A stretch of 64,000 nt of DNA, taken from contig CALDDL010000012.1 of NCBI GenBank assembly GCA_937936675.1, positions 2,670 through 66,669 of the forward strand, read 5' to 3'. The translations under genes were made by a program, and so were the position numbers. The DNA is from an uncultured bacterium. Lineage in GTDB: Bacteria; Bacteroidota; Ignavibacteria; Ignavibacteriales; Melioribacteraceae. Below, piece after piece: positions 16,374 through 61,156 of this stretch; the stretch's first letter is position 1, and every line of letters starts with the position of its first letter. Under the pieces are notes generated by a model. The model did not search any database. It had not been told where the DNA came from and worked only from the letters and a program-made list of their open reading frames with translations.

Positions 16374-17430
16374 AATACTGTTCGGCGACTGTTTTCCAAT
16401 TATACTTTTCATTAATATATTCCTTTGCAAGAATTTTAATTTGACTATAATCAACTTTGTTGGATTCTATATTATTTATTTGATTGGTAAATGTTTTTTT
16501 TTCAAATAACAATCCATATTTATCAGAAATTACTTCTTTATTATAAATAGTATTAAGTGCTAAGGTAAGTGCTCCGTTTCCTAGTGCTTGAAGCAATATT
16601 GGATTTGTACCACCAAATTCATGTCCATGTAAATAACAAAAACAGTTTTTTAATAAATGATTTATTCTGCTAATGCTTGTTACCAATCCCAATTTGACTA
16701 TTCTATTATCTTCTATCTGAATAATTTCATTATGATAATTATCTGATTTTTTTAATTCCCCAACAACTACTAATCGCTTATTAGTGTTAGATTTGAGCAA
16801 CTGTCTTATTAAAAAAAGTATATTATTATCAGGAATAATTCTTCCAATTATTAGATAATATGAATTAGTTTCAAACTCAATCGCCTCACTTTCAGAGATA
16901 TAAGTATTTGCTCCATAACTGATATTTTTTGTATCTATTTTGAATTGATTTTTATAGAAAGAGGATATTTCTTTTGAATCGGCAATTAGATGATGAGCAC
17001 AAATTTTTGAGATTCGAGCAGAAATATAAAAATAACCTTTCCCAATTATATTCCATTTCTTGCGCCTCCATTCAATTCCGTCAACGCAAATAATTATTTT
17101 TCTGGAAGTAAATACTTTCTGCAAAAAAGCAAAAGGTGCATTTGCAATATTGACATAAAGGATAATATCACATTTAATAAAAAAAGAATGAAAAGTTGAT
17201 TTGAAGGAATGAATAAATTGGGCAAGATTTTTTCTTTCTAATGTACTTATATTTATTCTTGAAATTTTATTTGAATCATAAGATTCCAAGAGTTTTATAG
17301 TATGCGGTCGTTCATACACAATAAAATTAATATCTCTATCAGACATATTAATTATAAGTTCTCTTATAAAGGTTTCAAATCCTCCATAGACAACATTGAA
17401 TCCATGAGAACCGATAATGGCTATATTCAC
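16354..17430 (-). CDS. Glycosyltransferase family 4 with N-terminal DUF1972-type domain
   Basis: GTG start. The N-terminus NIAIIGSHGFNVVYGGFETF matches the DUF1972 signature (IIGTRGIP..YGGFET). The C-terminal EFGGTNPILLQALGNG is GT-B/GT4-like. Confidence 0.8.
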   Translation of the reverse strand: MNIAIIGSHGFNVVYGGFETFIRELIINMSDRDINFIVYERPHTIKLLESYDSNKISRINISTLERKNLAQFIHSFKSTFHSFFIKCDIILYVNIANAPFAFLQKVFTSRKIIICVDGIEWRRKKWNIIGKGYFYISARISKICAHHLIADSKEISSFYKNQFKIDTKNISYGANTYISESEAIEFETNSYYLIIGRIIPDNNILFLIRQLLKSNTNKRLVVVGELKKSDNYHNEIIQIEDNRIVKLGLVTSISRINHLLKNCFCYLHGHEFGGTNPILLQALGNGALTLALNTIYNKEVISDKYGLLFEKKTFTNQINNIESNKVDYSQIKILAKEYINEKYNWKTVAEQYYELFQN

Positions 17431-28540: not shown

Positions 28541-29977
28541 TCAAAATTTGAATGATACCGTAAACATTAAATTATTGACAGAAACTTCCTGAAAAGTTCT
28601 TGATAAGTTAGAGCCATAATTATCTCCAAAATCATTCCACCAGCCATGTGCATAAGCAATATTAATAGATAAGTTTTTATCAGTAGCAAATCCAATACCG
28701 GCAGTAACATATTTTTTATCGAAATCGCTTTGATCGCCTTTAAAAGCAGATGGGTAATACATGAACCCGCCTCTTAGTGCAATTCCGGTATAAGGTATTT
28801 TATATTCCATACCTAAATTAAAATTAGTAACACTTTGCAAAAGATCTTTGATATCCAAGTTTTTATCTTTCATTGCTCTTTCGCCTAATCCATCGGTAAA
28901 TTCCATTTGAGTATAATCAATTATTTTTGCATCACCGCTTAGAGTCAGGTCTTGATAATGAATTGCAGCACCTAAATAAAATTCAAATGGTGTTGTAATT
29001 TCGTATTGTATTGCTGTCTCATAAGGCGGATCTAAATAATAATTAGCATTGGTGAAAAAGCTTTCGGCATCTTCTCTATAAACTTCTTTTATTGTATAAT
29101 TTCTTGGAAATTTGATAGAAGCACCTAAATTCACAAGGTCATTGGCTTTATAAAGGATTCCTAGTTGTGCATCATAACCACTCAAGTCCCATGTAAGTAT
29201 ATCGTTATAATAAAAACTTTCGAAACCTCGTGTAAATTCATCCTCAGGGTCTAATGCCAAATCATTTCCGTAATTATCCTTTGTATCAATTTCATTATAT
29301 TCTCGGTTCTTTGTGTATTCACCACTAATAATATTAAGAGAACCACCGATAAATAAATTCTTTTGAACTTCAATAGCACCGGCGAAACTCCAAGCACTTA
29401 TATCCCCTTCTTGAAGAATCGTTCCGCTCTGATTTAGTTTTCCATTTATTCTTGTTTCATCTCCTGCATAATCTGCACCATTATATGTGGGGTAACTTAA
29501 TCCCAGTTCATAGGCAATATCATCATTATAAGAAACCATATCCTGAATCATTGAATTATTAGCACTATTATAACCATCGAACTTAATTACTCTATTAAAA
29601 TCTTTGTATCTATTGTATCCTAGCGCAAAAACTAAACTACCTTGATATGTAGGAAAAGGGAAAACAAATCCAAATTGATTAAAACCTGTATTACCATTAT
29701 CATAGGTGGTAGTATTTTTAAACAATTCCGTTGATGTCGATTGATTGTTATAATTAAGAGAAGCATCGAGCTGCAATTTTTTTATTAAACCTAATCCGGC
29801 AGGATTGAATGCAATACCGGAAAAATCATTGCTTAATGCTGTATAAGCATTACCCATTCCAAGGGCTCGCGCTCCTGATAATATTCCATGTTCAGTCAAT
29901 CTTAAAGCATCATTATAGTTCTGTGCATTTATTGACACAGAAGCCAAAACCAAAATTAGAACTATTAATTTTTTCAT
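28541..29977 (-). CDS. Outer-membrane beta-barrel protein, FadL/PorV-like
   Basis: Signal peptide MKKLIVLILVLASVSINAQ. The N-terminal plug-like motif GARALGMGNAYTALSNDFSGIAFNPAGLG is typical of FadL/TodX/PorV-type barrels. The C-terminus ends ...TVSFKF (aromatic). Confidence 0.6.
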   Translation of the reverse strand: MKKLIVLILVLASVSINAQNYNDALRLTEHGILSGARALGMGNAYTALSNDFSGIAFNPAGLGLIKKLQLDASLNYNNQSTSTELFKNTTTYDNGNTGFNQFGFVFPFPTYQGSLVFALGYNRYKDFNRVIKFDGYNSANNSMIQDMVSYNDDIAYELGLSYPTYNGADYAGDETRINGKLNQSGTILQEGDISAWSFAGAIEVQKNLFIGGSLNIISGEYTKNREYNEIDTKDNYGNDLALDPEDEFTRGFESFYYNDILTWDLSGYDAQLGILYKANDLVNLGASIKFPRNYTIKEVYREDAESFFTNANYYLDPPYETAIQYEITTPFEFYLGAAIHYQDLTLSGDAKIIDYTQMEFTDGLGERAMKDKNLDIKDLLQSVTNFNLGMEYKIPYTGIALRGGFMYYPSAFKGDQSDFDKKYVTAGIGFATDKNLSINIAYAHGWWNDFGDNYGSNLSRTFQEVSVNNLMFTVSFKF

Positions 29978-33727: not shown

Positions 33728-35725
33728 ATGATTAGAAGGTTAACTGCATTTACCTTGATCTCTTTGCTTCTAACCACAGTTGTTTATTCACAGACAATGA
33801 GTCTAACAACTTACGGTGTATCACCAAGAGAAGCGAATTTAAACGCAACTGATATTTTTACCGTTCAGTATAACGGATTAAAGAATGTCGGCGTTAATAG
33901 TAAAATCTATTTAAAAGCAACACTAAGCGGTGCAAGATTAAAAGCACCGGTATTTTCAATAGTAGAAAAACCTGCCGGTTCTACTGCTGCTTATGGCGGA
34001 ACAATTGAAGGCGGTTTAGATTCTTCAAATACTGTGATTCCATTTACCCCTGATGTTGTGGGTAAATATATCCTTAGAGTTAAAGACGGCAGCTATCAAG
34101 CAGATATCATTATCAATGCCGCTAAATATGTTGGTGTTGAAAAATGTAAAGACTGTCATAAATTTGCAGGCTTTGGTGGAGAAATTGTTGAAGCATGGCA
34201 AAAAACCGGACACGCAAACCAGATGAAAGAAGCATTCAATGGTGAATATAGCAGTCATTTCCAAGAATTTTGTTTAGCATGCCATGCAACCGGTTATGAT
34301 AAAAAAGCCGCAAATGATGGTTTTGATGATTTCCCGTTCGTATATCCGGCAGTATTAGCTCCGGGCGTTTATGATCAAACAGCTGCTATGTATCCTGAAG
34401 CTATGAAATTAGCAAACGTTCAGTGCGAAGCTTGTCACGGTCCAGGAAGTGTTCATGCTTCTTCACCTCTTAACTCAAAAGAAAATTCAAAAATCTCCGT
34501 AACAATGAGCTCAGATAATTGTGCTTACTGTCATGATAATGGTGCACATCACGTATTTGCTGAACAATGGGATTATTCTGCTCACGCAAACCCAACTAGC
34601 TACCCTGCTGGTCCTGGTCGTGAAAGCTGTGTTAGATGCCACACAGGTTCAGGTTTCAAACAATTCGTTGATGGCGTTCCTACAACCAGTACAGATCCAA
34701 CTTTTGATGCAATCTCATGTGCAAGCTGTCATGAACCTCATAGCAATGCTAATTCTCATCAATTAAGAAAAACAAGCGTTAAATTAGGAAATGGCGAAGT
34801 TGTTGATGGCGGTGGAAACGGAAGACTTTGCATGAACTGTCATCAGAGCCGTCAAAATGCTGCTACATATACAGTAAAATCGGCTTCTCATTATGGACCA
34901 CACTATGCTACACAAGCTGACGTTCTTGTAGGTACAAACGTTGTAACTTGGGGAGCTACAATTCCAAGTACGAAGCATTTCAATGTTACAGAAGATGCAT
35001 GCGTTACATGCCACATGTATCCTGATCCTGCAGGCGCTGCTAAAAAAGCAGTTCATCAAGGAGCTCACACATTCAGTATGAGAGATATAGATACAGGCGT
35101 AGCTAATATGGATGCTTGCGCAACTTGCCACGGTGGTTCTCTAGGTCTTGATTTCCATGATGTTAAGTTCTTCTATAAAGGAACTGGCGATCATGATGGT
35201 GATGGTGTTACTGAAGGATTACAGGAAGAAGTTCATGGTTTAATTGAAAAAGTTAGTGCTTTATTACCAAATCCTGATCCACATGCTGAAACTTCAACTG
35301 CATGGACTAAAGTTCAATTAGAAGCTGCTTATAACATCAGAACAATCTATTATGATAATAGCTGGGGAATTCACAATCCTAAGTTCACTATTGAATTATT
35401 AAATACAACTTGGAAAGCATTAAATGGTATTACTGACGTTGATGAAAACGAACTAATTCCTACTGAATTTACAGTTTATCAGAACTATCCGAATCCATTT
35501 AATCCAACTACGAATATTAAATTCTCTATTCCAAAAGCATCTAATGTAAAAGTTATTGTTTATGACGCTATCGGTAGAGAAGTTAGACAATTAGTAAATA
35601 ATGAATTGAACGCAGGAACACATACAATTCAATTTAACGCTTCTAACTTAGCTTCAGGTATCTATCTATACAGAATCGAAGCAGGCGACTTTACTAAAGT
35701 TAACAAGATGTTATTAATAAAATAA
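33728..35725 (+). CDS. Multiheme (nine CxxCH) c-type cytochrome with T9SS C-terminal sorting domain
   Basis: Signal peptide present. Nine heme-binding motifs: CKDCH, CLACH, CEACH, CAYCH, CVRCH, CASCH, CMNCH, CVTCH, CATCH. The C-terminus reads NYPNPFNPTTNIKFSIP....VNKMLLIK, a Por_Secre_tail-type CTD. Confidence 0.9.
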   Translation: MIRRLTAFTLISLLLTTVVYSQTMSLTTYGVSPREANLNATDIFTVQYNGLKNVGVNSKIYLKATLSGARLKAPVFSIVEKPAGSTAAYGGTIEGGLDSSNTVIPFTPDVVGKYILRVKDGSYQADIIINAAKYVGVEKCKDCHKFAGFGGEIVEAWQKTGHANQMKEAFNGEYSSHFQEFCLACHATGYDKKAANDGFDDFPFVYPAVLAPGVYDQTAAMYPEAMKLANVQCEACHGPGSVHASSPLNSKENSKISVTMSSDNCAYCHDNGAHHVFAEQWDYSAHANPTSYPAGPGRESCVRCHTGSGFKQFVDGVPTTSTDPTFDAISCASCHEPHSNANSHQLRKTSVKLGNGEVVDGGGNGRLCMNCHQSRQNAATYTVKSASHYGPHYATQADVLVGTNVVTWGATIPSTKHFNVTEDACVTCHMYPDPAGAAKKAVHQGAHTFSMRDIDTGVANMDACATCHGGSLGLDFHDVKFFYKGTGDHDGDGVTEGLQEEVHGLIEKVSALLPNPDPHAETSTAWTKVQLEAAYNIRTIYYDNSWGIHNPKFTIELLNTTWKALNGITDVDENELIPTEFTVYQNYPNPFNPTTNIKFSIPKASNVKVIVYDAIGREVRQLVNNELNAGTHTIQFNASNLASGIYLYRIEAGDFTKVNKMLLIK

Positions 35726-50393: not shown

Positions 50394-50487
50394 GCTTCCT
50401 CCTGTTTTTTATCATTAACAAAGATAATTAAAAAAGAGTTCAAGTATTAATAAGTTTTTTTAAGTTCATCCATTTTATTAAAAAGCA

Positions 50488-50505
50488 ATACCAAAATTTT
50501 GGTAT
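50488..50505. promoter_or_regulatory. Perfect 18-bp palindrome upstream of the tandem paralogue pair
   Basis: ATACCAAAA|TTTTGGTAT lies about 140 nt upstream of the ATG at 50644, in the gpx / paralogue-A divergent region. Confidence 0.3.
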
Positions 50506-50643
50506 AGCTTTTAATTAATAATAATATAAATTAGCTATTGATTTCCTTTCTAAATGTTGTAATTATGAATGAGGGTTAATTGCATACATGTAAAATACTG
50601 CAGCATCTGAAAATATATTTTATATATAGCTCGAGGAGCATAT

Positions 50644-53232
50644 ATGTATAAAAAGATTACTATAATCAATAGCCTATTTCTAATCATATTTATTTTTACA
50701 TCAGTTCAAATCCTAGGTGAAGGAGGGAATAAAAAAAATTCTCCACTTCAAAAAACCAACGGCGTGCCATCTTATACAAAATTTAATATTAATAACATTT
50801 CGACATGGTTTAAGAACGATGGCGAATCTGATATTAATCAAAATGGGAACTCCGGATTTGAATATCCCAAAGGCAGCAGGAAGAATGCCATTTTTCAATC
50901 CGGTTTTTTATGGGGCGGTAAAGTAGATGGACAAGTAAGAGTAGGCGGATCTGCGTATCGGCAAGGAACGGTACCGGGTAGAGTTATTAAAAATGCTCAG
51001 AATAAATGGGAAGCCGTTAGGCCAAACGATCCTGATGTAAGAATTTATAGAGTAAGACCCGATTATAAAAAAGCTCATCTTAGTGCCGAGATAAAAGACG
51101 GTGATGGAAAAAACGAGAAGGAAATTAGAGCACAATATGAAAAAGATTGGAAGGAATGGCCGGCAGCTCAAGGTGCTCCATATAAAGATGTAAATAAGGA
51201 TGGTGTTTATGACCCTAATATTGATATACCCGGAGTAGAAGATTCTCATCAAACAATCTGGTTTATTTGTAATGATTTTGATAATAAAGCCACAGACTTT
51301 ATGTATGGTTCGCCTCCAATGGGCATCGAAGAACAGGTTACAATCTGGGGCTATAAAACTAAAGGTGCTCTTAACAATATGCTCTTTAGAAAATATATTA
51401 TTATAAATAAAAACATAGATGAAAAACCTTTCACTGATATGTATGTTTCGATGTGGAGCGATCCTGACCTTGGTAATGCAAGTGATGATTTATCCGGCTG
51501 CGATTCAACATTGAGCTTAGCATATATTTATAATGGAAATAATACTGATGCCGTGTATGGAGAAGATGTTCCTGCTGCTGGATTTGATTTTCTGCAAGGT
51601 CCTATTGTAACCGGACTTCCAGGTGATACTGCAATATTTAATAACAAATATATTTCTGGCAAAAAAAATCTTCCTATGACGGCATTTTATTTCTTTACTG
51701 GCGGTGATAACATTTATACTGATCCAGCACAAGGGGTCTATCAAACAGGTACACTATTATTTTATAATTATATGAGAGGATTAAGTCCGGCTACTAAGCA
51801 ACCTTATATTGACCCAATAACATTAAAGCCAACATATTTCCCTCTTTCAGGAGACCCGGTTAAAGGTACCGGCTGGTTAGATACTTATAAGGCAGACCGC
51901 CGATTTGGTATTGCTTCCGGTCCTTTTAATATGGCTTATGGTGATACACAAGAAATTATAATTGCTGAAATCGCAGCAGGAGCCACTCGAGGTGTTGATC
52001 GTTTAGAAGCAATTACTTTATTAAAAGACTATGATGGTGCGGCACAATTTGCTTATAATAATTTATTTAATTTACCGGGTACATCTGAGCAGCCCGAAGT
52101 TATTGCTACCGGTTTAGATAAAGAAATAATTTTATCTTGGGGAGCAGACTTTGAAGCCGTTAATAAAGGTGAAAACTATAATGCTGCAGGGTTCCGGTTT
52201 GAAGGTTATAACGTATATCAACTTCCCTCCTTTTTTGCTCTCGAAAGTGAAGCAAAAAGAATAGCTACTTTTGATATAAAAAACGGAGTGAAGACTATTA
52301 TTGGTTCAAATTATGATAATGAAAAAAATCTTTGGTTGGATTATGTTGCTGCTTTTGGATCGGACTCGGGAATCAAAAGATATATTTCTATTAAAAATGA
52401 TGCTTTTAATGGTAACCTTCCACTTAATAATGGACAAAAATATTATTTCGCAGTTACTTCATATACATATAATGACAATCCTCCTTTTAGTCCAAACACT
52501 TATGAGAATCCAATAAAAATAATTGAAGTGATTCCAAAATCAATGGACCCCGGAGTTAGGTATCCGGCAGAACAGGGAGCAATTATTCATGGTATTCATT
52601 CTTCAGGTACGAGTAGCGGTGATCTTAATGTAACGGTCATCGATCCTACTTTAGTAACCGGCGACAAGTATCAAATTTCATTTCAAGAAAATGGAGCATT
52701 GGGAATTACATACACAATTACAAATCTTTCAAAGGATACTGTTTTAGCATCGGAGGTAAATCAAAATCTTGGGGAAGCGTCTCCTTTGATAGACGGTTTA
52801 CTTATATCTGTTTTTAATCCATCTCAAATTGAAAAACAAAATAAAATTTCCGATATATTTGAGTTTACATCTCCTTCAATAATAAAAGACAATAAATTGG
52901 CAAAAGCAGATGTGGAAAATATAAACGTTTTTCCTAATCCATATTACGGATGCAATCCGCAGGAGATAAATAAATATCAGCGCTTTATTACAATAAATCA
53001 TCTTCCTGCAAAAGCTACGATACGCATTTTTAATCTTGCTGGACAGTTGATTACAACAATTGATAAGAACGATCCGAACACACAATTCCAGAGATGGACT
53101 TTGACAAATGACGGCGGATATCAAGTCGGCAGCGGAATTTATATTATTCATATCGATATGCCCGATCTAGGGGCAACAAAAGTGCTTAAAGCTGCTATAA
53201 TACAGGAGCAGCAGATTTTGGATAGATTTTAA
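50644..53232 (+). CDS. Large secreted protein of unrecognised family with FN3-like segment and variant T9SS-type C-terminal domain (paralogue A)
   Basis: 862 aa. Signal peptide MYKKITIINSLFLIIFIFTSVQILG, preceded by a GAGGAG SD. No catalytic family motif recognised. The C-terminus reads NVFPNPYYGCNPQEINKYQRF...TKVLKAAIIQEQQILDRF. Confidence 0.75.
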   Translation: MYKKITIINSLFLIIFIFTSVQILGEGGNKKNSPLQKTNGVPSYTKFNINNISTWFKNDGESDINQNGNSGFEYPKGSRKNAIFQSGFLWGGKVDGQVRVGGSAYRQGTVPGRVIKNAQNKWEAVRPNDPDVRIYRVRPDYKKAHLSAEIKDGDGKNEKEIRAQYEKDWKEWPAAQGAPYKDVNKDGVYDPNIDIPGVEDSHQTIWFICNDFDNKATDFMYGSPPMGIEEQVTIWGYKTKGALNNMLFRKYIIINKNIDEKPFTDMYVSMWSDPDLGNASDDLSGCDSTLSLAYIYNGNNTDAVYGEDVPAAGFDFLQGPIVTGLPGDTAIFNNKYISGKKNLPMTAFYFFTGGDNIYTDPAQGVYQTGTLLFYNYMRGLSPATKQPYIDPITLKPTYFPLSGDPVKGTGWLDTYKADRRFGIASGPFNMAYGDTQEIIIAEIAAGATRGVDRLEAITLLKDYDGAAQFAYNNLFNLPGTSEQPEVIATGLDKEIILSWGADFEAVNKGENYNAAGFRFEGYNVYQLPSFFALESEAKRIATFDIKNGVKTIIGSNYDNEKNLWLDYVAAFGSDSGIKRYISIKNDAFNGNLPLNNGQKYYFAVTSYTYNDNPPFSPNTYENPIKIIEVIPKSMDPGVRYPAEQGAIIHGIHSSGTSSGDLNVTVIDPTLVTGDKYQISFQENGALGITYTITNLSKDTVLASEVNQNLGEASPLIDGLLISVFNPSQIEKQNKISDIFEFTSPSIIKDNKLAKADVENINVFPNPYYGCNPQEINKYQRFITINHLPAKATIRIFNLAGQLITTIDKNDPNTQFQRWTLTNDGGYQVGSGIYIIHIDMPDLGATKVLKAAIIQEQQILDRF

Positions 53233-53283
53233 TGATGCAAAAGGGATTGATAAAACTTATGCATTTAGTTTGCAGGAGGATTT

Positions 53284-55533
53284 ATGAATAAAAGAATTAC
53301 AATCTCCGTAAATCTATTTCTTATAATAATATTTTTTTCGAATAATCAATTATTCTCTCAGAAAAAAGATGCCGGAATAAGTTCGCCTATTTTTAAAATT
53401 AATGGCGAACCATCTTACACCAAATTCAATATCAATAGAATATCTACATGGTTTAAGAATGATGGTGAATCGGATATACATCAAAACGGAAATTCGGGAT
53501 TTATCTATCCTAAAGGAAGCAATAAGGGGGCAGTTTTCCAATCCGGTTTTTTATGGGGCGGTAAAGTAGATGGAATAGTAAGAGTTGGCGGATCGGTTTA
53601 TCGGCAAGGGACAGTACCCGGAAGAGTAATTAAAAATTCAACCGGTAAATGGGAAGCTGTCAATCCAAATGAACCTGATGTAAGAATCTATCGAGTAAGA
53701 CCGGACTATGTAAATGCGAATCTTAAAATTGAAGTTAGTGATGGAGACGGTAAAGATCAAAACGAGGTGAGAGAAAAGTATAAAAAAGATTGGATGGAAT
53801 GGCCTGCGGATCAAGGAGCACCTTTTGACGATATAAATAAAAATGGAATTTATGAACCAAAGATCGATATTCCGGGAGTACCGGGAGCAGATCAAACAAT
53901 TTGGTTTGTCTGTAATGATTTTGATCCTAGGGCTACTGAATTTTTATATGGTTCGCCTCCTTTGGGAATAGAAGAGCAAGTAACAGTCTGGGGCTATAAT
54001 ACAGATGGTCCTCTCGGGAATATGCTTTTTAGAAAATATATTCTTATCAATAAAAATCTGGAAGAAAAATCATTTACAGATATGTATGTTTCTATCTGGT
54101 CGGATATTGATGTTGGTAATGCTAGTGATGATTACGTAGGTTGTGATACCACATTAGGTCTGGGATTCGGATATAATGGTTATTATAATGATGCTGTTTA
54201 TGGAATAAATGTACCTGCAGTGGGGTTTAAGATAGTTCAAGGTCCAATTATAGGAGGCACACCTTCAGACACTGCGATTTTCAAAAATAAATATATATCT
54301 GGGAAAAAGAATCTCGGGATGACTGCATTTTATTTTACGGTTAATGGTGATAATATTTATACTTATCCTTCACAAGAAGCATATCAAACCGGTACACTGG
54401 CTTTTTACAATTTATTTCAAGGTAAACTTGCCTACACAGGTGAATTTCCAATAAATCACAAGACAGGTCTTCCAACTAAATTCCCATTATCGGGTAATCC
54501 GATTGATAGAACGGGCTGGATAGACGGTCAGATACATTCACCCGGAAATCGAACGTTTGGATTGGCTTCAGGTCCATTTAATATGGCTTATGGCGATACT
54601 CAAGAAATTGTATTTGCTGAAATAGCTGCCGGTGCAACTAAGGGTATCGATAATTTACAAGCAGTAACATTATTGAAAGAGTATTCAAAAGTATCTCAAT
54701 TTCTATATAATCATTTTTTTGATTTCATTGCCGCACCTTCTAAGCCCCAAATTAATGTAACAACATCTGAAAGTGAAATAACATTATCATGGGATCAAGA
54801 CCCGACTGCCGTTATGCTAACCGAGAGTTATTCCAAGTATGGATATAATTTCGAGGGGTATAATATTTATCAGATCCCCGCTCCGGGCTTCTCCCTTTCT
54901 GAAGCTAAATTAATTGCTACTTTTGATATTAAAAACGGAGTAACTGCAATTATCGATAAAGAATTTGATGAAAGAAATAATGTCTTTATTGATAAGGTAA
55001 TTGCTTTTGGCACTGATTCGGGAATTAAAAGATCAATTACAATTAATAAAGATGCATTCAATGCTAACTTACCTTTGAATTATGGACAAAAATATTACTT
55101 TGCAGTTACAGCATATTCATATAACGAAAGACCACCTTTTGGTTCACATATTTTTGAAAATCCAATAGATGTAATTGAAGTTACACCACAATCCGCATTT
55201 ATTCAAGAAGATATTTCACGAATAAATGTATTCCCAAACCCATACTATGGAGCTAATCCACAGGAGATAAATAAATATCAACGGTTCGTTACTTTTTCTC
55301 ATTTGCCTGCCGAGGCAACCATAAAAATATTTAATTTAGCCGGACAATTAGTTGCTCACATTGAAAAGACAAATCCTGAATCACAATTCGTAAGGTGGGA
55401 TTTGAATAATGATGCAGGATATATGGTAGCCGGCGGTCTTTATTTAGCTTATATAGAAATGCCGGAACTCGGCAAAACGAAGGTACTAAAAATAGCAATC
55501 ATCCACGAACAACCGATCTTGGACAGATTTTGA
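53284..55533 (+). CDS. Paralogue B of the preceding gene (749 aa), same architecture minus one internal module
   Basis: AGGAGG SD and a signal peptide. It is colinear with paralogue A over about 620 aa, roughly two-thirds identical by eye. The two genes share an identical 36-nt run (50896-50931 = 53539-53574). The C-terminus reads NVFPNPYYGANPQEINKYQRF...TKVLKIAIIHEQPILDRF. Confidence 0.75.
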   Translation: MNKRITISVNLFLIIIFFSNNQLFSQKKDAGISSPIFKINGEPSYTKFNINRISTWFKNDGESDIHQNGNSGFIYPKGSNKGAVFQSGFLWGGKVDGIVRVGGSVYRQGTVPGRVIKNSTGKWEAVNPNEPDVRIYRVRPDYVNANLKIEVSDGDGKDQNEVREKYKKDWMEWPADQGAPFDDINKNGIYEPKIDIPGVPGADQTIWFVCNDFDPRATEFLYGSPPLGIEEQVTVWGYNTDGPLGNMLFRKYILINKNLEEKSFTDMYVSIWSDIDVGNASDDYVGCDTTLGLGFGYNGYYNDAVYGINVPAVGFKIVQGPIIGGTPSDTAIFKNKYISGKKNLGMTAFYFTVNGDNIYTYPSQEAYQTGTLAFYNLFQGKLAYTGEFPINHKTGLPTKFPLSGNPIDRTGWIDGQIHSPGNRTFGLASGPFNMAYGDTQEIVFAEIAAGATKGIDNLQAVTLLKEYSKVSQFLYNHFFDFIAAPSKPQINVTTSESEITLSWDQDPTAVMLTESYSKYGYNFEGYNIYQIPAPGFSLSEAKLIATFDIKNGVTAIIDKEFDERNNVFIDKVIAFGTDSGIKRSITINKDAFNANLPLNYGQKYYFAVTAYSYNERPPFGSHIFENPIDVIEVTPQSAFIQEDISRINVFPNPYYGANPQEINKYQRFVTFSHLPAEATIKIFNLAGQLVAHIEKTNPESQFVRWDLNNDAGYMVAGGLYLAYIEMPELGKTKVLKIAIIHEQPILDRF

Positions 55534-55633
55534 ATACCAAATAAGTTTGCTTATAACCTAATATTTTATTTAGATAATTAAGGTTAGACCCTGAATAATG
55601 ATTAACAAGGAAAGCAATAAAAATTTTAAAATA

Positions 55634-55685
55634 AAAAATCCCTAATGCAGAAAACTATTACTAATATTTTGCAAAAGGGATTTTT
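55634..55685. terminator. Long hairpin between convergent paralogue B and pta (candidate bidirectional terminator)
   Basis: 10-bp stem AAAAATCCCT (55634-55643) / AGGGATTTTT (55676-55685) with an A-run on the left and a T-run on the right. The loop is about 32 nt with partial internal pairing. Confidence 0.4.
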
Positions 55686-55703
55686 AATTTCTATGAAAAT
55701 TTC

Positions 55704-57876: not shown

Positions 57877-59274
57877 ATGAAAATTACTTTTGTGGGAGCT
57901 GCACGTACTGTTACAGGCTCTATGCACTTAATTGAAACAAACGGAAAAAAGTTTTTGCTCGATTGCGGGATGTATCAGGGTAAAAGAAAAATAGCATTTG
58001 AAATAAACAGAACATTTGATCTATTCGATCCAAAAGAACTTGATTTTATTATTCTTTCACATGCTCATATTGACCATTCAGGTAATCTCCCCACGATTGT
58101 AAGAAAAGGTTTTAAAGGAGATATTTATTCTACATTTGCTACGAGAGACTTGGCTGCTGTTATGCTTCAAGATAGTGCTCATATTCAGGAAAAAGATGTT
58201 GAGTATGTAAATAAAAGAAGAAAGAAGCGAGGGCAAAATCTTTTTGAACCCTTATATACACAAGACGATGCTCTGGCAACATTAGGAATGTTTGTAGGAA
58301 TGAATTACCATCGCGAAAGAGAAATTGCTCCCGGTATTAAATTAGCATTTTTCGATGCGGGTCATATCCTCGGTTCGGCTTCAGTTTTTCTTACAATAAA
58401 AGAAGATGATAAAATAATTAAACTTGGTTTCTCCGGAGATCTCGGAAGAAATAATCTCCCAATATTAAAAGACCCTGAACATATTCCGAATGTTGACCTA
58501 TTTATTTCGGAAAGTACTTACGGCGGAAGAATGCATGAGAACGCACTAAATTCAGAAGCCCAATTAGAAGAAGTCGTAAGACGTGCAATGAAAAATAAAA
58601 GCAAAATTATCATTCCTGCTTTTAGCGTAGGAAGAACTCAAGAGATCGTTTTCGCATTAAATAGAATTTATGACAGAACTAAATTAATTCCTATCCCAAC
58701 TTATGTTGATAGTCCTCTTTCTGTAAATGCTACTGATGTATTTAGAATGCACCCTGAATGCTTCGATTACGAAACTGTCCAATTCTTACTTAAAGAAGAA
58801 GACCCTTTCGGTTTCAAAAAACTTACTTATATTACTGACGTCGAGGATTCAAAAAGACTCAATGAAAAAAAGGGACCGCTAATTATTATTTCAAGCTCCG
58901 GAATGTGCGAAGCCGGTAGAATTCTGCATCACCTTGCAAATAATGTCGGTGATCCTAATAATATCATTTTAATGGTTGGATATTCGGCGGTTCATACATT
59001 AGGCAGAAGGATAATTGACGGTGAAAAAAGAATTAAAATTTTCGGTGATGAATATGATCTTAAAGCAGAAGTAGTTGTAATGGAATCATTCAGTGCTCAT
59101 GCAGATGCCGAAGAACTATATAATTATGCAGATAAGTTTGATAAAAGCAGAATGCAAAATTATATTTTGGTTCATGGAGAATATGAACAGCAGCAGATTT
59201 TTAAGGAAAAACTTCATTCACTTGGTTTCTTAAATGTTACAATACCCGCTCGCGGTGAAACGATTTCTATATAG
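57877..59274 (+). CDS. MBL-fold metallo-hydrolase, beta-CASP (RNA-metabolising) subfamily
   Basis: MKITFVGAARTVTGS, the HAHIDHSG motif, beta-CASP motifs (ESTYG, SVGRTQE) and the C-terminal SAHAD. Confidence 0.85.
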   Translation: MKITFVGAARTVTGSMHLIETNGKKFLLDCGMYQGKRKIAFEINRTFDLFDPKELDFIILSHAHIDHSGNLPTIVRKGFKGDIYSTFATRDLAAVMLQDSAHIQEKDVEYVNKRRKKRGQNLFEPLYTQDDALATLGMFVGMNYHREREIAPGIKLAFFDAGHILGSASVFLTIKEDDKIIKLGFSGDLGRNNLPILKDPEHIPNVDLFISESTYGGRMHENALNSEAQLEEVVRRAMKNKSKIIIPAFSVGRTQEIVFALNRIYDRTKLIPIPTYVDSPLSVNATDVFRMHPECFDYETVQFLLKEEDPFGFKKLTYITDVEDSKRLNEKKGPLIIISSSGMCEAGRILHHLANNVGDPNNIILMVGYSAVHTLGRRIIDGEKRIKIFGDEYDLKAEVVVMESFSAHADAEELYNYADKFDKSRMQNYILVHGEYEQQQIFKEKLHSLGFLNVTIPARGETISI

Positions 59275-61156
59275 CGCAATTCTATTTTTTGTATTTACTT
59301 CTGCTTCGTATTCGCAAGTGGAAGTAGATACATCTAAATTTCATCTCTCGGGATATAAATATAAAAGTGCTTCGGCTATTTTTGATAAACAGCTCAATAC
59401 TTATTTTTTCAATTATAGAATAAAATACTTTTTAGAAAAAGATAATTTTTTTACCGGAATAAAAGAAAATTTTACATCGACAATAACTAAAACTTCCGAA
59501 AAAAATATTAAAGATGAACAGTATTTAAGTGCAATAGGAGAATATAAATTTTCGGATATTTTCAGAGCCGGAGTATTAATAGATAATACTCTTTATTCCG
59601 ATGATAGAAAAACGGCTATAAATAAAGCATCGCAAATAAATCTTTCCGGTTATACAAAAATAAAATTTAATTCAAATATATCATTAACGCCTTATTTAGG
59701 TTTATCTAAGAATAAACAAATTAGTGAAGATGATAGCGGTTTATTATATGGAGCAGAAGGATTTATTGAGCAGCTCTCGTTAAATGATTTTATAATAAAT
59801 TCATCGGCACGATTTCAGAATGAAGACATTTCTCCGAGAAAAAATGCACTGAGAGTTATTAATACCGAAATAAATAACCAATTCGATTCGCAGTTCAGCA
59901 ATAAATTACTTGCAGGATATTCAGAGCAAAGAAAAGATTTTTATTTTGCGGCTGATCCAACTACTTCCGAAGAATTTGGAATCAATAATAATATCCAAAG
60001 CCGTACCGAATCCAATTATCTAATCCAAGAAAAATTAAATTATATCTCTCCTGATGATAATCTCCTATTTGATCTCTTGGGAAGAGTCTATTGGCGCGAT
60101 ATAGACCGTACCACTCGCTTTATTTCACTTAATAATAGCAATGTGAATCTCGATAATAAAATCAATGAATTCCGGCTGGAATTTGCAGGTAATATATCGT
60201 TCATTTCTGAAATCCTTCAAGCTAATTTAAGAGCATCTTATACTGAACGTGAAGAAAAACACGAGCCAAAGAGGATCGATGGTATTTCTGATTTTTCTTT
60301 TAATGAAAAAAGTATTCAAGAAGCTCAAAAAAATAATTTCTCTCAATTATCCACCGTTACTTTTCTTGGTAAAATTAATTTAACTCGAAAAGACTTGCTT
60401 ATTACAAGTGTATTTCATCGAAAACTAAGATATGATACACCAAGCGAGATTAATTTTGATGATAGAGATGAGCTGCTTACTATTGCACGAATCCAATACG
60501 AAAGAAAAATCAATGCGATTTTCACTGCATTTATAAACACAGAAGCGAGCTTAAATAAAACTGTATATATTTTTAAAGAGAGAAGCTCAAATAATAATAT
60601 CAATAGAATCATAAAATTAAGCGGTGGTGGAATTTTTAAGACTGACAGATTTGAATCAAAAAATAATGCCGAAGTCTCTGCTAATTATACAGTTTATGAA
60701 TTTGAAGAACTAAGTCCTAATTTTAAGAGTTACTCTTTTAGACAGCTTGCTCTTAGAGATTCATCTCAATTACATATTTCAAGAAGAATGAAATTGACAG
60801 GAACAGGATACTTAAAATTTAGTGAGCAAGGAGATTTTAATTGGGATGATTTTAAAAGCCGACCTATTAGATATTTAAGTGAAGCTTTTTGCGAAATTAA
60901 ATTATATTACACCTATAATATGATTTCACTTGGAGCAGGTATTCGTTATTTTAATTTAAGTACGTACGGATATGATAATGATAGTAATAAGAAACTGCTT
61001 TCAAGATACGAAAGTATCGGACCGGTTTCCGATATCACAATCGCCTTAAACTCAGTATCGCTCTCTTTTTATGGATGGTATGAATTTATTAAAACGGAAA
61101 ATGCAGTAAATAGAAATATGGCTAATATGAATTTAAAAGCAACAATAGCTTTTTAA
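59255..61156 (+). CDS. Putative large outer-membrane beta-barrel protein (unknown family)
   Basis: I prefer the GTG at 59255 (VKRFLYSAILFFVFTSASYSQ signal peptide). The track ATG at 59234 would overlap the upstream gene by 41 nt. The sequence has alternating beta pattern and ends ...LKATIAF. Confidence 0.5.
   Translation: MKRFLYSAILFFVFTSASYSQVEVDTSKFHLSGYKYKSASAIFDKQLNTYFFNYRIKYFLEKDNFFTGIKENFTSTITKTSEKNIKDEQYLSAIGEYKFSDIFRAGVLIDNTLYSDDRKTAINKASQINLSGYTKIKFNSNISLTPYLGLSKNKQISEDDSGLLYGAEGFIEQLSLNDFIINSSARFQNEDISPRKNALRVINTEINNQFDSQFSNKLLAGYSEQRKDFYFAADPTTSEEFGINNNIQSRTESNYLIQEKLNYISPDDNLLFDLLGRVYWRDIDRTTRFISLNNSNVNLDNKINEFRLEFAGNISFISEILQANLRASYTEREEKHEPKRIDGISDFSFNEKSIQEAQKNNFSQLSTVTFLGKINLTRKDLLITSVFHRKLRYDTPSEINFDDRDELLTIARIQYERKINAIFTAFINTEASLNKTVYIFKERSSNNNINRIIKLSGGGIFKTDRFESKNNAEVSANYTVYEFEELSPNFKSYSFRQLALRDSSQLHISRRMKLTGTGYLKFSEQGDFNWDDFKSRPIRYLSEAFCEIKLYYTYNMISLGAGIRYFNLSTYGYDNDSNKKLLSRYESIGPVSDITIALNSVSLSFYGWYEFIKTENAVNRNMANMNLKATIAF

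What the first reader, a model, noticed from the sequence alone, without database searches (positions are those of the whole stretch)
50644..55533. Tandem pair of large, T9SS-tagged secreted paralogues with no recognisable family
Two adjacent same-strand ORFs (862 and 749 aa) are separated by 51 nt with no terminator hairpin. Each has its own strong SD and signal peptide. They are colinear over about 620 aa, roughly two-thirds identical by eye (not computed), and share an identical 36-nt DNA run (50896-50931 = 53539-53574). That points to duplication with divergence or local gene conversion. Apart from an FN3-like stretch (EIILSWGAD...GYNVYQ / EITLSWDQD...GYNIYQ), Asp-rich Ca-binding-like loops (DVNKDGVYD, WSDPDLGNASDD) and the C-terminal sorting domain, I recognise no enzymatic or adhesin family. 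The unit looks self-contained: a 250-nt AT-rich upstream region carries a perfect palindrome, and a strong hairpin follows it. It sits between unrelated housekeeping genes (gpx, pta).
Basis: partly seen in the sequence, partly recalled or inferred. Interest (0 to 1): 0.7.

Follow-up and report, generated by a model that had tools for sequence, protein, structure and literature searches.

The report
Orphan paralogues of Ignavibacteria's major surface protein
The two genes are real, selectively maintained, short versions of an unnamed cell-surface protein family of Ignavibacteria; the full-length form sits between a TonB-dependent transporter gene and a PorQ-like anchor gene and is the second highest-scoring protein in the membrane proteome of Melioribacter roseus.

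Summary
Two same-strand ORFs (862 and 749 aa) lie 51 nt apart. They are 63% identical over 637 aa, and each has its own Shine-Dalgarno site and signal peptide. No Pfam or NCBIfam family covers the 635-aa N-region.

They are not isolated oddities. The N-domain profile finds 7,080 protein clusters, and the closest relatives are all Ignavibacteriota. AlphaFold gives a confident head domain (pLDDT 92). Its core resembles the non-catalytic galactose-mutarotase-like beta-supersandwich of GH94, GH116, GH65 and GH15-type enzymes. An FN3-like domain, zero or one Ig-like stalk domain and a variant T9SS C-terminal domain (CTD) ending in ...ILDRF follow.

In 58 of 58 informative relatives outside the window-type clade and one copy lying just downstream of a complete cassette, the gene sits in a fixed cassette: TonB-dependent transporter, family protein, PorV/PorQ-family barrel. 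Published M. roseus membrane proteomics ranks the cassette proteins 1st, 2nd and 11th. It also detects the extreme C-terminal peptide, so the CTD is retained as in PorZ and PorU.

The window pair is an old, selectively maintained duplication (dS 1.4, dN/dS about 0.15). It has lost the stalk and both partner genes. The most likely role is ligand capture for transporter uptake; this is inferred.

The parts
50394..50643 (.). Divergent gpx / gene-A intergenic region. It contains a highly conserved block next to gpx (50394-50505), a perfect 18-nt palindrome (50488-50505) and the Shine-Dalgarno site GAGGAG (50633-50638).
   Evidence: Sequence. The palindrome is unique in the window. An alignment with orthologous loci L002 and L006 shows the gpx-proximal block nearly invariant and the palindrome imperfect there.
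50644..53232 (+). Gene A, 862 aa: signal peptide, head domain, FN3-like domain, one Ig-like stalk domain, variant T9SS CTD.
   Evidence: ORF. AlphaFold model with pLDDT 83.5 and pTM 0.74. dN/dS is 0.14 against orthologues.
50764..52083 (+). Head (N) domain of A, residues 41-480. It has a beta-supersandwich core, Asp-rich calcium-type loops and a long C-terminal helix.
   Evidence: AlphaFold pLDDT 92.4 and pTM 0.92. Foldseek matches the N-terminal sandwich domains of 9ju0, 8rfe, GH116, GH94, GH92 and GH65. All 60 family-invariant residues of the N-region (head plus FN3-like domain) are kept.
52096..52533 (+). FN3-like beta-sandwich of A, residues about 485-630.
   Evidence: AlphaFold strands 487-629. 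Foldseek hits tandem FN3 domains. Relatives give weak fn3 HMM hits at the same position.
52576..52878 (+). Ig-like stalk domain of A, residues about 645-745. It is absent from B and is a remnant of the 350-500-aa variable stalk of cassette members.
   Evidence: BLASTP gap. Occupancy map of alignment A1. AlphaFold beta strands 647-742.
52891..53229 (+). Variant T9SS C-terminal domain of A (residues 750-862), with a family-specific C-terminal extension QEQQILDRF (53203-53229).
   Evidence: NCBIfam TIGR04183 scores 23.3 bits (cut-off 23), and the PorZ C-terminal region scores 43.7 bits. There is no Pfam PF18962 hit. Tail comparison.
53233..53283 (+). 51-nt spacer with the Shine-Dalgarno site AGGAGG (53274-53279) and no terminator. 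The pair is probably co-transcribed.
   Evidence: Sequence. Fold energy -9.9 kcal/mol, z = -1.2. The same 51-nt spacing occurs in L004 and L007.
53284..55533 (+). Gene B, 749 aa: signal peptide, head domain (53407-54735), FN3-like domain (about 54748-55194), no stalk, variant CTD (55195-55530) ending HEQPILDRF.
   Evidence: ORF. BLASTP against A. dN/dS is 0.12-0.17 against orthologues. All family-invariant residues are kept.
55629..55690 (.). Imperfect 29-nt-arm hairpin between the convergent genes B and pta; a likely bidirectional terminator.
   Evidence: Inverted repeat I4. Fold energies -18 and -22 kcal/mol, z = -4.5 and -5.8.

Best explanation
A and B are functional, probably co-transcribed genes for cell-surface proteins. 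[quoted passage not shown]

They belong to a very large family whose identified members are all Ignavibacteriota and which has no curated model. The architecture is a highly conserved, calcium-binding head with a galactose-mutarotase-like beta-supersandwich core, then an FN3-like domain, then a stalk of Ig-like domains that varies in length and sequence, then a variant T9SS C-terminal domain (CTD) that ends in an almost invariant ...ILDRF-COOH.

The canonical gene is the middle gene of a fixed three-gene cassette: a CarboxypepD_reg/Plug/Oar-type TonB-dependent transporter, the family protein, and a PorV/PorQ-family 14-strand barrel. In that setting the CTD is not cut off by the sortase. It is kept, and most likely docks the protein onto the PorQ-like barrel, as PorZ is held by PorQ. 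The head most likely captures, or possibly trims, an extracellular ligand that the adjacent transporter imports. The ligand is probably a glycan or glycoconjugate. This would be a T9SS-assembled functional analogue of SusCD or RagAB.

The window pair descends from such a cassette gene by an old duplication. A kept one stalk domain and B kept none, and both lost the neighbouring transporter and barrel genes. Both kept the variant CTD, so they must use a PorQ-like barrel, and probably a transporter, encoded elsewhere in the genome.

Shown here: gene integrity, purifying selection, domain architecture, cassette linkage, and the association between CTD class and partner gene. Shown in published data for the M. 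roseus homologue: abundance and CTD retention. Inferred: docking to the PorQ-like barrel, ligand capture for the transporter, and use of partners in trans by A and B.
For: Reality and selection: the ORFs are intact with Shine-Dalgarno sites and signal peptides. dN/dS is 0.12-0.17 against orthologues in at least four other assemblies. The tandem arrangement and flanking synteny are conserved. All 60 residues that are invariant across 91 family members are kept in both A and B.

Family size: at least 1,975 hits in the word-indexed search. The N-domain profile finds 7,080 50%-identity clusters, 2,316 of them at E<=1e-30. The best 80 of 343 GTDB-species loci are all Ignavibacteriota.

Fold: the head model has pLDDT 92.4. 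Foldseek probability is 1.0 with TM 0.33-0.40 to the N-terminal supersandwich domains of dextran dextrinase 9ju0, GH116, GH94 and GH65-type proteins. The invariant polar residues are D, E, N, Q, Y, W, R and T only. Orphan relatives carry BACON domains.

Cassette: 58 of 58 variant-CTD genes outside the A/B clade and L063_6791 (which lies just downstream of a complete cassette) are followed by a PorV/PorQ-family gene. The 55 of 60 cassette loci with enough upstream sequence also show a transporter of about 1000 aa just upstream. The barrel scores 170 bits on NF033709 (cut-off 90), and PorQ is its best equivalog. The transporter domains are CarboxypepD_reg, Plug and OMP_b-brl_4.

CTD class tracks the partner: six orphan members with canonical tails (...KMLLIK...KMVLLK; the three tested hit PF18962 at 46-47 bits) have no PorQ-like neighbour. 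Cassette members and A/B give no PF18962 hit. The tail is confined to this family in 1.1 Mb of sampled loci. The CTD matches the PorZ C-terminal region better than the generic type A model. Foldseek's top full-length hits include PorZ 5m11 and PorU 6za2.

Experiment on a homologue 59% identical to A (MROS_0285 = P0010): in M. roseus membrane-fraction proteomes the transporter, the family protein and the barrel rank 1st, 2nd and 11th by score. Their emPAI values are similar under aerobic and fermentative growth. CTD peptides, including the extreme C-terminus VAIIQEQQILDRF, are detected (PMC5492636 supplements).

Precedents: PorZ is anchored by PorQ and PorU by PorV (PMC12365241). Orphan T9SS cargo use a shuttle encoded elsewhere (PMC12618676).

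Phylogeny: the A clade and B clade are sisters, and together they are sister to the cassette gene of the closest relative genome, L008.
Against: There is no expression or localisation evidence for A or B themselves.

The window holds no transporter or PorQ-like gene. Use of partners in trans is assumed, and the MAGs that carry A/B-type genes are incomplete.

The head is unusually conserved for a substrate-binding protein (median 60% identity between cassettes). That fits an enzyme, or a protein that contacts a conserved partner, as well as it fits ligand capture.

The structural match is at fold level only (8-10% identity, rmsd about 10 A) and is to domains that are non-catalytic and not always sugar-binding.

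In about half of the loci the primary cassette lies next to lipid A acyltransferase and heptosyltransferase genes, which could point to an envelope-biogenesis role.

CTD peptides in a membrane fraction could partly come from precursor protein still in the periplasm.

T9SS has not been studied experimentally in Ignavibacteriota.
Confidence: 0.5

Rival explanations
1. Structural surface coat. The family protein, with its transporter-like barrel and PorQ-like anchor, forms a constitutive protective or stabilising outer layer, similar to an S-layer or a major outer-membrane protein. It has no ligand-capture role. A and B would then be alternative short-stalk coat subunits.
For: The cassette proteins rank 1st, 2nd and 11th in the M. 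roseus membrane proteome, at similar levels under two very different growth modes. The termini are conserved and the exposed middle is hypervariable (26% median identity), as expected for an exposed coat under diversifying pressure. The cassette neighbours LPS-biosynthesis genes.
Against: The strictly conserved partner has the Plug and barrel domains of a TonB-dependent importer. RagAB in P. gingivalis is likewise very abundant and constitutive yet is an importer (my own knowledge). The head has a conserved acidic and aromatic residue set that looks like a binding site.
Confidence: 0.2
2. Surface-anchored enzyme. The head is a new catalytic domain, for example a calcium-dependent glycan hydrolase or lyase, that cuts a polymer at the cell surface. 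The neighbouring transporter takes up the products.
For: The head is very highly conserved (60% median identity; 60 invariant residues across the N-region of 91 sequences, including E229, D211, D434 and E437). The supersandwich fold also supports catalysis in aldose epimerases (my own knowledge). All structural neighbours are carbohydrate-active enzymes.
Against: The matched domains are the non-catalytic N-terminal domains of those enzymes, and their (alpha/alpha)6 catalytic domain is absent. No HMM match to any CAZy-type Pfam family at E<=1. No invariant His, Ser, Cys or Lys.
Confidence: 0.15
3. T9SS attachment-complex analogue. The family protein plays PorZ's role in Ignavibacteriota: it binds a surface glycolipid and hands it to the sortase while held by a PorQ-like barrel. 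A and B would be extra copies.
For: The CTD matches PorZ's C-terminal region best (43.7 bits). The partner's best equivalog is PorQ. The CTD is retained. LPS genes lie nearby. The window carries a PorU2-like sortase.
Against: The full-length PorZ model scores 43.7 bits against a cut-off of 260, and the match is confined to the CTD. No beta-propeller domains are predicted. Genomes hold 1-3 cassettes plus orphans, and the protein's abundance far exceeds what a machinery component needs. This model does not explain the invariably linked transporter.
Confidence: 0.08
4. The similarity between A and B, and the 36-nt identical run, reflect recent duplication or ongoing gene conversion. One copy may be decaying.
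For: The 36-nt exact run is the longest shared by far. The local identical-codon fraction rises to 0.72-0.79 around it, against 0.56 overall.
Against: dS between A and B is 1.37, close to saturation. A and B each have separate orthologue clades in several MAG species. The same nucleotide stretch is 29/36 identical in a 71%-identical orthologue from another genome. Both copies show dN/dS of about 0.15 and keep every invariant residue.
Confidence: 0.04

Closest known systems
PorZ-PorQ (and PorU-PorV) sub-complexes of the Porphyromonas gingivalis T9SS attachment complex
   Same: Both are T9SS-exported surface proteins whose C-terminal beta-sandwich is retained and serves to hold the protein on a dedicated PorV/PorQ-family outer-membrane barrel (PMC12365241). 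Here the CTD matches PorZ's best, the neighbouring barrel matches PorQ best, and C-terminal peptides are seen in the mature homologue.
   Different: There are no beta-propellers, and PorZ similarity is confined to the CTD (43.7 vs 260 bits). The CTD has an extra invariant ...QEQQILDRF tail. The cassette always includes a TonB-dependent transporter. The proteins are among the most abundant in the membrane rather than a low-copy machinery part. A and B lack the adjacent barrel gene.
SusC/SusD and RagA/RagB outer-membrane uptake pairs of Bacteroidota
   Same: In both, a TonB-dependent transporter gene is immediately followed by the gene for a surface-exposed partner. Genomes carry several copies. 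The pair is very abundant in the membrane, as RagAB is (my own knowledge).
   Different: The partner here is not a lipoprotein and is not the all-alpha, TPR-like SusD fold. It is a beta-rich protein anchored through a T9SS CTD and a third component, the PorQ-like barrel. The transporter is Oar-type rather than SusC (TIGR04056 scores 73.8 bits against a cut-off of 368, N-terminal part only). M. roseus also has a separate SusD/RagB pair, MROS_0760/0761.
Type B CTD cargo with cognate PorP/SprF shuttle genes in Flavobacterium johnsoniae
   Same: Cargo and the barrel gene that recognises its CTD are genetically linked. Orphan cargo share a shuttle encoded elsewhere (PMC12618676). That is the situation proposed for A and B.
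   Different: The CTD here derives from type A (PNPYYG, GxY and KxLK motifs), not type B; there is no CHU_C or type B HMM hit. The barrel belongs to the PorV/PorQ family rather than PorP/SprF (TIGR03519 scores 21 bits against a cut-off of 90.55).
N-terminal galactose-mutarotase-like supersandwich domains of GH94, GH116, GH65, GH92 and GH15-type enzymes
   Same: The core of the head domain superposes on them with Foldseek probability 1.0, E down to 2e-6 and TMq 0.33-0.40. Viral GH65-like proteins give the same answer.
   Different: Sequence identity is 8-10% and rmsd about 10 A. The catalytic (alpha/alpha)6 barrel is absent. The head has extra helices and Asp-rich calcium-type loops. There is no HMM-level relationship.
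Oar, the Myxococcus xanthus TonB-dependent transporter needed for PopC secretion
   Same: The cassette transporter has the same Pfam architecture: CarboxypepD_reg, Plug and the OMP_b-brl_4 (Oar-like) barrel (PMC6434023 listed).
   Different: Nothing suggests protein export through the transporter here, because the family protein carries its own T9SS signal. This applies to cassette relatives only; the window has no such gene.

Membership tests
T9SS type A sorting domain (NCBIfam TIGR04183 / Pfam PF18962 Por_Secre_tail) | HMM score above the curated cut-off | tested here: inconclusive
   TIGR04183 gives A 23.3 bits against a cut-off of 23 (a bare pass) and B 18.3 bits (a fail). PF18962 gives no hit at E<=1 for A, B or cassette members. 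Orphan relatives with canonical tails, and the window's cytochrome, score 46-47 bits.
T9SS type A sorting domain | C-terminal beta-sandwich with PxP/G, GxY and terminal basic-strand motifs at the very C-terminus | tested here: inconclusive
   The beta-sandwich is modelled at residues 760-855. The FPNPYYG, G(I/L)Y and TKVLK motifs are present. However, there is a 10-residue insertion (NPQEINKYQR) and an 8-9-residue extension (QEQQILDRF) beyond the point where canonical CTDs of this genome end.
T9SS type A sorting domain | CTD removed by the PorU sortase after export | tested here: not met
   This was tested only on published data for the homologue MROS_0285. Five CTD peptides, including the C-terminal VAIIQEQQILDRF, are detected. 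They make up at least 33 of 356 listed peptide matches, or 9%, for a region that is 11% of the length. A and B themselves were not tested.
T9SS type B sorting domain (CHU_C / TIGR04131) | HMM match | tested here: not met
   No hit for A or B in Pfam or NCBIfam at E<=1.
PorZ (NCBIfam NF052228) | Full-length equivalog score; two beta-propeller domains followed by a CTD | tested here: not met
   A scores 43.7 and B 43.2 bits against a cut-off of 260, and only model positions 666-757 (the CTD) match. The AlphaFold model shows a sandwich head, not propellers.
Fibronectin type III (PF00041) | HMM match; seven-strand beta-sandwich | tested here: inconclusive
   No fn3 HMM hit for A or B at E<=1. Relatives give weak hits at the same position (E 0.006-0.0075, below the cut-off). 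The fold-level match to tandem FN3 structures is strong (E 1e-6 to 1e-5).
Glycoside hydrolase / phosphorylase families GH94, GH116, GH65, GH15-type | (alpha/alpha)6 catalytic barrel with family catalytic residues; sequence-level family match | tested here: not met
   Only the N-terminal supersandwich is matched. The model is beta-rich with four short helices and no alpha-barrel. No Pfam or PDB sequence match.
SusD/RagB | Lipoprotein signal (lipobox Cys); all-alpha TPR-like fold; Pfam SusD models | tested here: not met
   The signal peptides contain no Cys. The fold is beta-rich. No SusD Pfam hit.
Ignavibacteriota transporter / family protein / PorQ-like cassette (defined here) | Head domain with all family-invariant residues | tested here: met
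   All 60 invariant positions are kept in A and B. The N-domain is 55-75% identical to members.
Ignavibacteriota transporter / family protein / PorQ-like cassette (defined here) | Variant CTD ending in [ILVM]-D-[RK]-[FY] | tested here: met
   A ends ...QEQQILDRF and B ends ...HEQPILDRF.
Ignavibacteriota transporter / family protein / PorQ-like cassette (defined here) | Transporter gene immediately upstream and PorV/PorQ-family gene immediately downstream | tested here: not met
   tblastn finds neither gene anywhere in the 64-kb window. The neighbours are gpx and pta. In the closest relative (BRH_c32) a full cassette lies about 65-70 kb away on the same contig (loci L007 and L008).

The most novel reading that the evidence does not exclude
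The family defines an undescribed three-component outer-membrane machine of Ignavibacteriota. An Oar-type TonB-dependent transporter is served by a T9SS-delivered surface protein. That protein carries a new CTD subclass, derived from type A, that is retained rather than cleaved and ends in an invariant ...ILDRF. The CTD docks the protein onto a dedicated PorQ-family barrel. The result would be a T9SS-assembled counterpart of SusCD or RagAB and the dominant outer-membrane complex of the phylum. A and B would then be stalk-less alternative heads that plug into the same anchor and transporter in trans, changing what is presented at the cell surface.
Probability: 0.35. Interest if true: 0.7.

Novelty: new variant of a known kind. 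Interest (0 to 1): 0.55.

Why it matters
T9SS cargo are usually thought to be either released or sortase-linked to lipopolysaccharide (type A), or held by PorP/SprF barrels (type B). This family suggests a third route outside Bacteroidota: a CTD derived from type A that is retained and co-inherited with a PorQ-family barrel, always next to a TonB-dependent transporter.

In the one cultured species with proteomic data, the cassette proteins are the top-scoring membrane proteins. The family therefore probably shapes the whole cell surface and nutrient uptake of Ignavibacteriota, which are common in anammox reactors, sediments and the subsurface. Yet it has no Pfam model, no name and, as far as the searchable literature shows, no description.

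The window pair adds an evolutionary point. Stalk-less orphan copies keep the docking signal, which implies that partners can be shared in trans.

M. roseus is cultivable and the complex is abundant, so the hypothesis can be tested directly by native purification and cryo-EM.

Tried and rejected
- **HMM searches.** Pfam and NCBIfam scans of A and B found only weak FlgD_ig and CTD matches.
- **PDB sequence searches.** Single-sequence and profile searches found nothing except the PorZ CTD at E 0.39.
- **Whole-protein Foldseek.** The hits were dominated by generic FN3 tandems and were uninformative for the head. I therefore modelled the head alone. Foldseek against viral structures only repeated the GH65-type sandwich result.
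- **Gene conversion.** Rejected on dS, on phylogeny and on cross-genome conservation of the 36-nt run.
- **Palindrome as an operator for gene A.** It cannot be assigned. It sits in the gpx-proximal conserved block, is imperfect in orthologous loci and is unique in the window.
- **Promoter and terminator scans.** The sigma-70 and terminator consensus scans found no more sites than shuffled controls.
- **RNA searches.** Rfam and tRNA scans of the region found nothing.
- **Literature searches.** Searches for MROS_0285, PorV/PorQ with TonB, Ignavibacteria with T9SS, and BRH_c32 found no description of the family or the cassette.
- **Cluster-name look-up.** Divergent representatives returned only 'T9SS type A sorting domain-containing protein' or 'hypothetical protein'.
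- **Pseudogene reading.** Rejected because of purifying selection and retention of all invariant residues.
- **Cysteine peptidase idea.** An invariant-looking GCD motif in 23 sequences suggested it. I dropped it because C286 is not invariant in the 91-sequence set and there is no invariant His.
- **Not resolved.** The taxonomic range of the most distant of the 7,080 clusters is unknown, because only the best hits are listed.

Full report
**1. The observation**

The window holds two same-strand ORFs, A at 50644..53232 (862 aa) and B at 53284..55533 (749 aa). BLASTP gives 63% identity over 637 colinear residues and 61% over the last 126. A has about 113 extra residues (about 634-746) between these two blocks. 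The 36-nt identical run is exact and is the longest by far. Both genes have AGGAG-type ribosome-binding sites and Cys-free signal peptides. The 51-nt spacer has no significant hairpin, and the same spacing recurs in relatives.

The upstream 18-nt palindrome (50488-50505) and the downstream hairpin (55629-55690; -18 and -22 kcal/mol, z = -4.5 and -5.8) both exist. The neighbours are a glutathione peroxidase gene and a phosphotransacetylase gene. Two details need correcting:

- The hairpin abuts the stop of the convergent pta gene and is probably a shared terminator.
- The palindrome lies in a block next to gpx that is better conserved than the coding sequence in orthologous loci, where the palindrome is imperfect. 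It cannot be credited to gene A.

**2. Both genes are functional, and the duplication is old**

dS between A and B is 1.37, with dN/dS 0.20. Against orthologues in other assemblies dN/dS is 0.12-0.17. In a neighbour-joining tree the 862-aa A clade and the 749-aa B clade are sisters, and each contains several MAG species. Together they are sister to a 1075-aa gene (L008) of the closest relative genome.

The 36-nt run encodes the most conserved motif, QSGFLWGGKVDG. It is 29/36 identical even in a 71%-identical orthologue from another genome. It therefore reflects conservation, not recent gene conversion. The tandem pair and its flanking genes (RNR, malQ and gpx on one side; pta, AI-2E and beta-CASP on the other) are syntenic in relatives.

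**3. Curated libraries and structure**

Pfam gives nothing except a sub-threshold FlgD_ig match in the C-terminal domain. NCBIfam gives a borderline T9SS type A sorting domain (A 23.3 bits against a cut-off of 23; B 18.3) and a stronger local match to the C-terminal region of PorZ (43.7 and 43.2 bits against a full-length cut-off of 260). Sequence searches of the PDB are empty.

AlphaFold on a 23-sequence alignment gives a confident model of A (pLDDT 83.5) with these parts:

- a signal helix;
- a disordered linker;
- a head of about 440 residues;
- an FN3-like sandwich (about 485-630);
- one further Ig-like sandwich (about 645-745, the part missing in B);
- a C-terminal sandwich.

Modelled alone, the head reaches pLDDT 92.4 and pTM 0.92. 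Foldseek against the PDB matches it consistently to the N-terminal beta-supersandwich (galactose-mutarotase-like) domains of dextran dextrinase 9ju0, the glycoside-phosphorylase domain of cyclic glucan synthase 8rfe, GH116 beta-glucosidases, GH94 phosphorylases and GH92 (probability 1.0, E down to 2e-6, TMq 0.33-0.40, 8-10% identity). Viral GH65-like proteins give the same answer. These are the non-catalytic domains of those enzymes, and the catalytic alpha-barrel is absent here. This is a fold-level resemblance with a carbohydrate flavour, not family membership.

Across 91 family members, 60 positions are invariant or have one exception, and both A and B keep all of them. The polar ones are D, E, N, Q, Y, W, R and T, with no His, Ser, Cys or Lys. 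The loop consensus D-V-D-G-N-G-x-Y-D fits the DxDxDG calcium-loop pattern (the assignment is my own knowledge).

**4. The family**

The word-indexed search finds at least 1,975 relatives. Where named, they are called 'T9SS type A sorting domain-containing protein' or 'hypothetical protein', from Melioribacteraceae and Ignavibacteriales. They include MROS_0285 of Melioribacter roseus. A head-domain profile finds 7,080 50%-identity clusters, 2,316 of them at E<=1e-30. In GTDB species genomes 343 loci match, and the best 80 are all Ignavibacteriota, with several copies per genome.

Lengths fall into classes of about 750, 860, 1100 and 1250 aa. The differences lie entirely between the FN3-like domain and the C-terminal domain.

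**5. The conserved cassette**

In M. roseus and in a distant MAG the gene is preceded by a protein of about 1000 aa with CarboxypepD_reg, Plug and OMP_b-brl_4 domains, which is a TonB-dependent transporter of the Oar type. It is followed by a barrel protein of about 345 aa. That barrel passes the NCBIfam PorV/PorQ family cut-off (170 bits against 90), and PorQ is its best equivalog.

Across the fetched loci, 60 carry the complete cassette. Of these, 59 show the barrel at position +1 and 55 show the transporter at position -1; the rest run off the contig.

Median pairwise identity between 51 cassettes is as follows:

| Component | Median identity |
|---|---|
| Transporter | 55% |
| Head | 60% |
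| FN3-like domain | 49% |
| Middle region | 26% |
| C-terminal domain | 69% |
| Barrel | 54% |

The pattern is a conserved head and a conserved anchor joined by a fast-evolving stalk of variable length.

**6. Two CTD classes that track the partner gene**

Canonical T9SS cargo in this same window end ...KMLLIK...LLYLK or ...LAIIR; these are a multihaem cytochrome, a subtilase and a PorU2-like sortase. A and B have a 10-residue insertion after PNPYYG and an extension ...QEQQILDRF.

- Among family genes with enough downstream sequence, 58 with this variant tail are followed by the PorQ-like gene.
- The 10 variant-tail genes without it are the A/B-type clade plus one copy that lies just downstream of a complete cassette.
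- The six orphan members with a canonical tail never have the PorQ-like gene.
- The three canonical-tail orphans that were tested hit Pfam Por_Secre_tail at 46-47 bits, whereas the three cassette members tested, and A and B, give no hit.
- In 1.1 Mb of sampled loci the tail occurs only in this family.

The variant CTD and the PorQ-like barrel are therefore co-inherited. This is the pattern expected if the barrel recognises that CTD.

**7. Experimental evidence for a homologue**

Gavrilov et al. 2017 (PMC5492636) analysed membrane-associated proteins of M. roseus under aerobic acetate growth and under maltose fermentation.

- In Supplementary Table S6, sheet T931, the transporter MROS_0286 ranks first by score (22153; 38 unique peptides).
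- The family member MROS_0285 (P0010, 59% identical to A) ranks second (16054; 28 peptides).
- The PorQ-like MROS_0284 ranks eleventh.
- The same top two appear in sheet T932.
- emPAI values differ only about 1.2-fold between the two conditions.

The peptide table lists five peptides from the C-terminal domain, including the extreme C-terminus VAIIQEQQILDRF (residues 1081-1093). They occur in about the proportion expected from the domain's length. The CTD is therefore retained in the abundant mature protein, unlike sortase-processed type A cargo. In this it resembles PorZ and PorU, which stay on the surface by binding PorQ and PorV (PMC12365241).

**8. Interpretation**

The best-supported reading is that the family protein is a surface-exposed partner of the transporter. 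It is delivered by the T9SS and held by its retained CTD on the PorQ-like barrel. Its calcium-binding head captures, or possibly trims, a ligand for import. This would be a functional analogue of SusCD or RagAB built from different parts. M. roseus also has an ordinary SusD/RagB pair, so this is an additional system.

A and B are derived copies. They keep the head, the FN3-like domain and the docking CTD, but they have lost most (A) or all (B) of the stalk and both partner genes. They would have to use a barrel, and probably a transporter, encoded elsewhere, as orphan type B cargo share a shuttle in F. johnsoniae (PMC12618676). In BRH_c32, the closest genome, a complete cassette lies about 65-70 kb from the orphan pair on the same contig. 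In the window organism the equivalent cassette would fall outside the 64-kb window.

Docking, ligand capture and use of partners in trans are inferences. Nothing is known about the expression of A or B.

**9. Rivals**

- **Structural coat.** Its constitutive, very high abundance and hypervariable middle fit this reading, but the invariably linked importer does not.
- **New surface enzyme.** The very high head conservation and the company of carbohydrate-active structural neighbours fit this reading. Against it, only non-catalytic domains are matched and no HMM supports it.
- **PorZ-like attachment factor.** The CTD and PorQ resemblance and the nearby LPS genes fit. The similarity stops at the CTD, and copy number and abundance argue against it.
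- **Gene conversion or decay.** Rejected on the evidence in section 2.

**10. Novelty and verdict**

The window feature is a pair of T9SS-type surface proteins from a family without a curated model. The family-level picture is a retained, type A-derived CTD with an invariant tail, a dedicated PorQ-family barrel, and obligatory linkage to a TonB-dependent transporter that forms the top-scoring membrane proteins of a cultured species. I could not find this picture in the searchable literature.

I rate it a new variant of a known kind and of moderate to good interest. It is more interesting at the family level than for the two orphan genes themselves.

Noticed in passing
window 11658-16454 (-): A 1598-aa protein with Peptidase_C25, ILEI and CARDB domains. 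Its best NCBIfam match is 'putative T9SS sortase PorU2' (334 bits, below the cut-off of 450), followed by PorU (252 bits). It ends in a canonical CTD (...LAIIR). This shows that the organism carries T9SS-type sorting machinery.
   Followed up: partly
window 33728-35725 (+): A 665-aa multihaem cytochrome (MtrC/MtrF domain II/IV, CXXCH motifs) with a canonical Por_Secre_tail CTD (46.9 bits). It looks like a T9SS-exported outer-surface cytochrome, possibly for extracellular electron transfer.
   Followed up: no
window 2968-4962 (-): A subtilase (Peptidase_S8) with a canonical T9SS-type C-terminus (...LLYLK). I used it only as a comparison for CTD tails.
   Followed up: no
window 28541-29977 (-): A 478-aa FadL/Toluene_X-like outer-membrane protein with sub-threshold PorV/PorQ-family (55 bits) and BamG (51 bits) matches. 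It is not the cassette-type PorQ-like barrel.
   Followed up: partly
window 59234-61156 (+): A 640-aa ORF with no Pfam or NCBIfam hit. It is conserved at the same position in the relative locus L004.
   Followed up: no
window 50394-50505: An intergenic block next to the gpx start codon is almost invariant between genomes whose flanking genes are only about 71% identical at the protein level. It contains the palindrome TACCAAAATT(T/A)TGGTA. It may be an operator or promoter for gpx, for example for a redox regulator.
   Followed up: partly
L037 3429-8704; L048 3616-13343; L081 3364-10093: A separate clade of family members occurs in tandem arrays of two or three genes without transporter or PorQ-like genes. 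These members carry a canonical type A CTD (PF18962 46-47 bits). The L037 and L048 members tested also have BACON and InlB B-repeat domains in the stalk. The CTD appears to have been swapped when the partner genes were lost.
   Followed up: partly
L001 12468-15732 and about 33 of 60 cassette loci: The primary cassette has extended conserved synteny: adh_short, acyl-CoA dehydrogenase and thioredoxin upstream; a GWxTD-domain protein, a lipid A acyltransferase and a GT9 heptosyltransferase downstream. A link to envelope or LPS biogenesis is possible but was not tested.
   Followed up: partly
L039 6878-10663; L042 6878-10108: These cassette members have premature stops, and in L039 a separate 3' fragment still carries the ...ILDRF tail. 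They are either frameshifted pseudogenes or assembly errors.
   Followed up: no
M. roseus proteome (PMC5492636, Table S6): Another adjacent pair, MROS_1581 (TonB-dependent receptor, rank 4) and MROS_1582 (annotated 'Gingipain R', rank 9), is also among the top membrane proteins, as is the hypothetical protein MROS_0520 (rank 3). Pairings of a transporter with a T9SS-type protein may be a wider theme in this organism.
   Followed up: no
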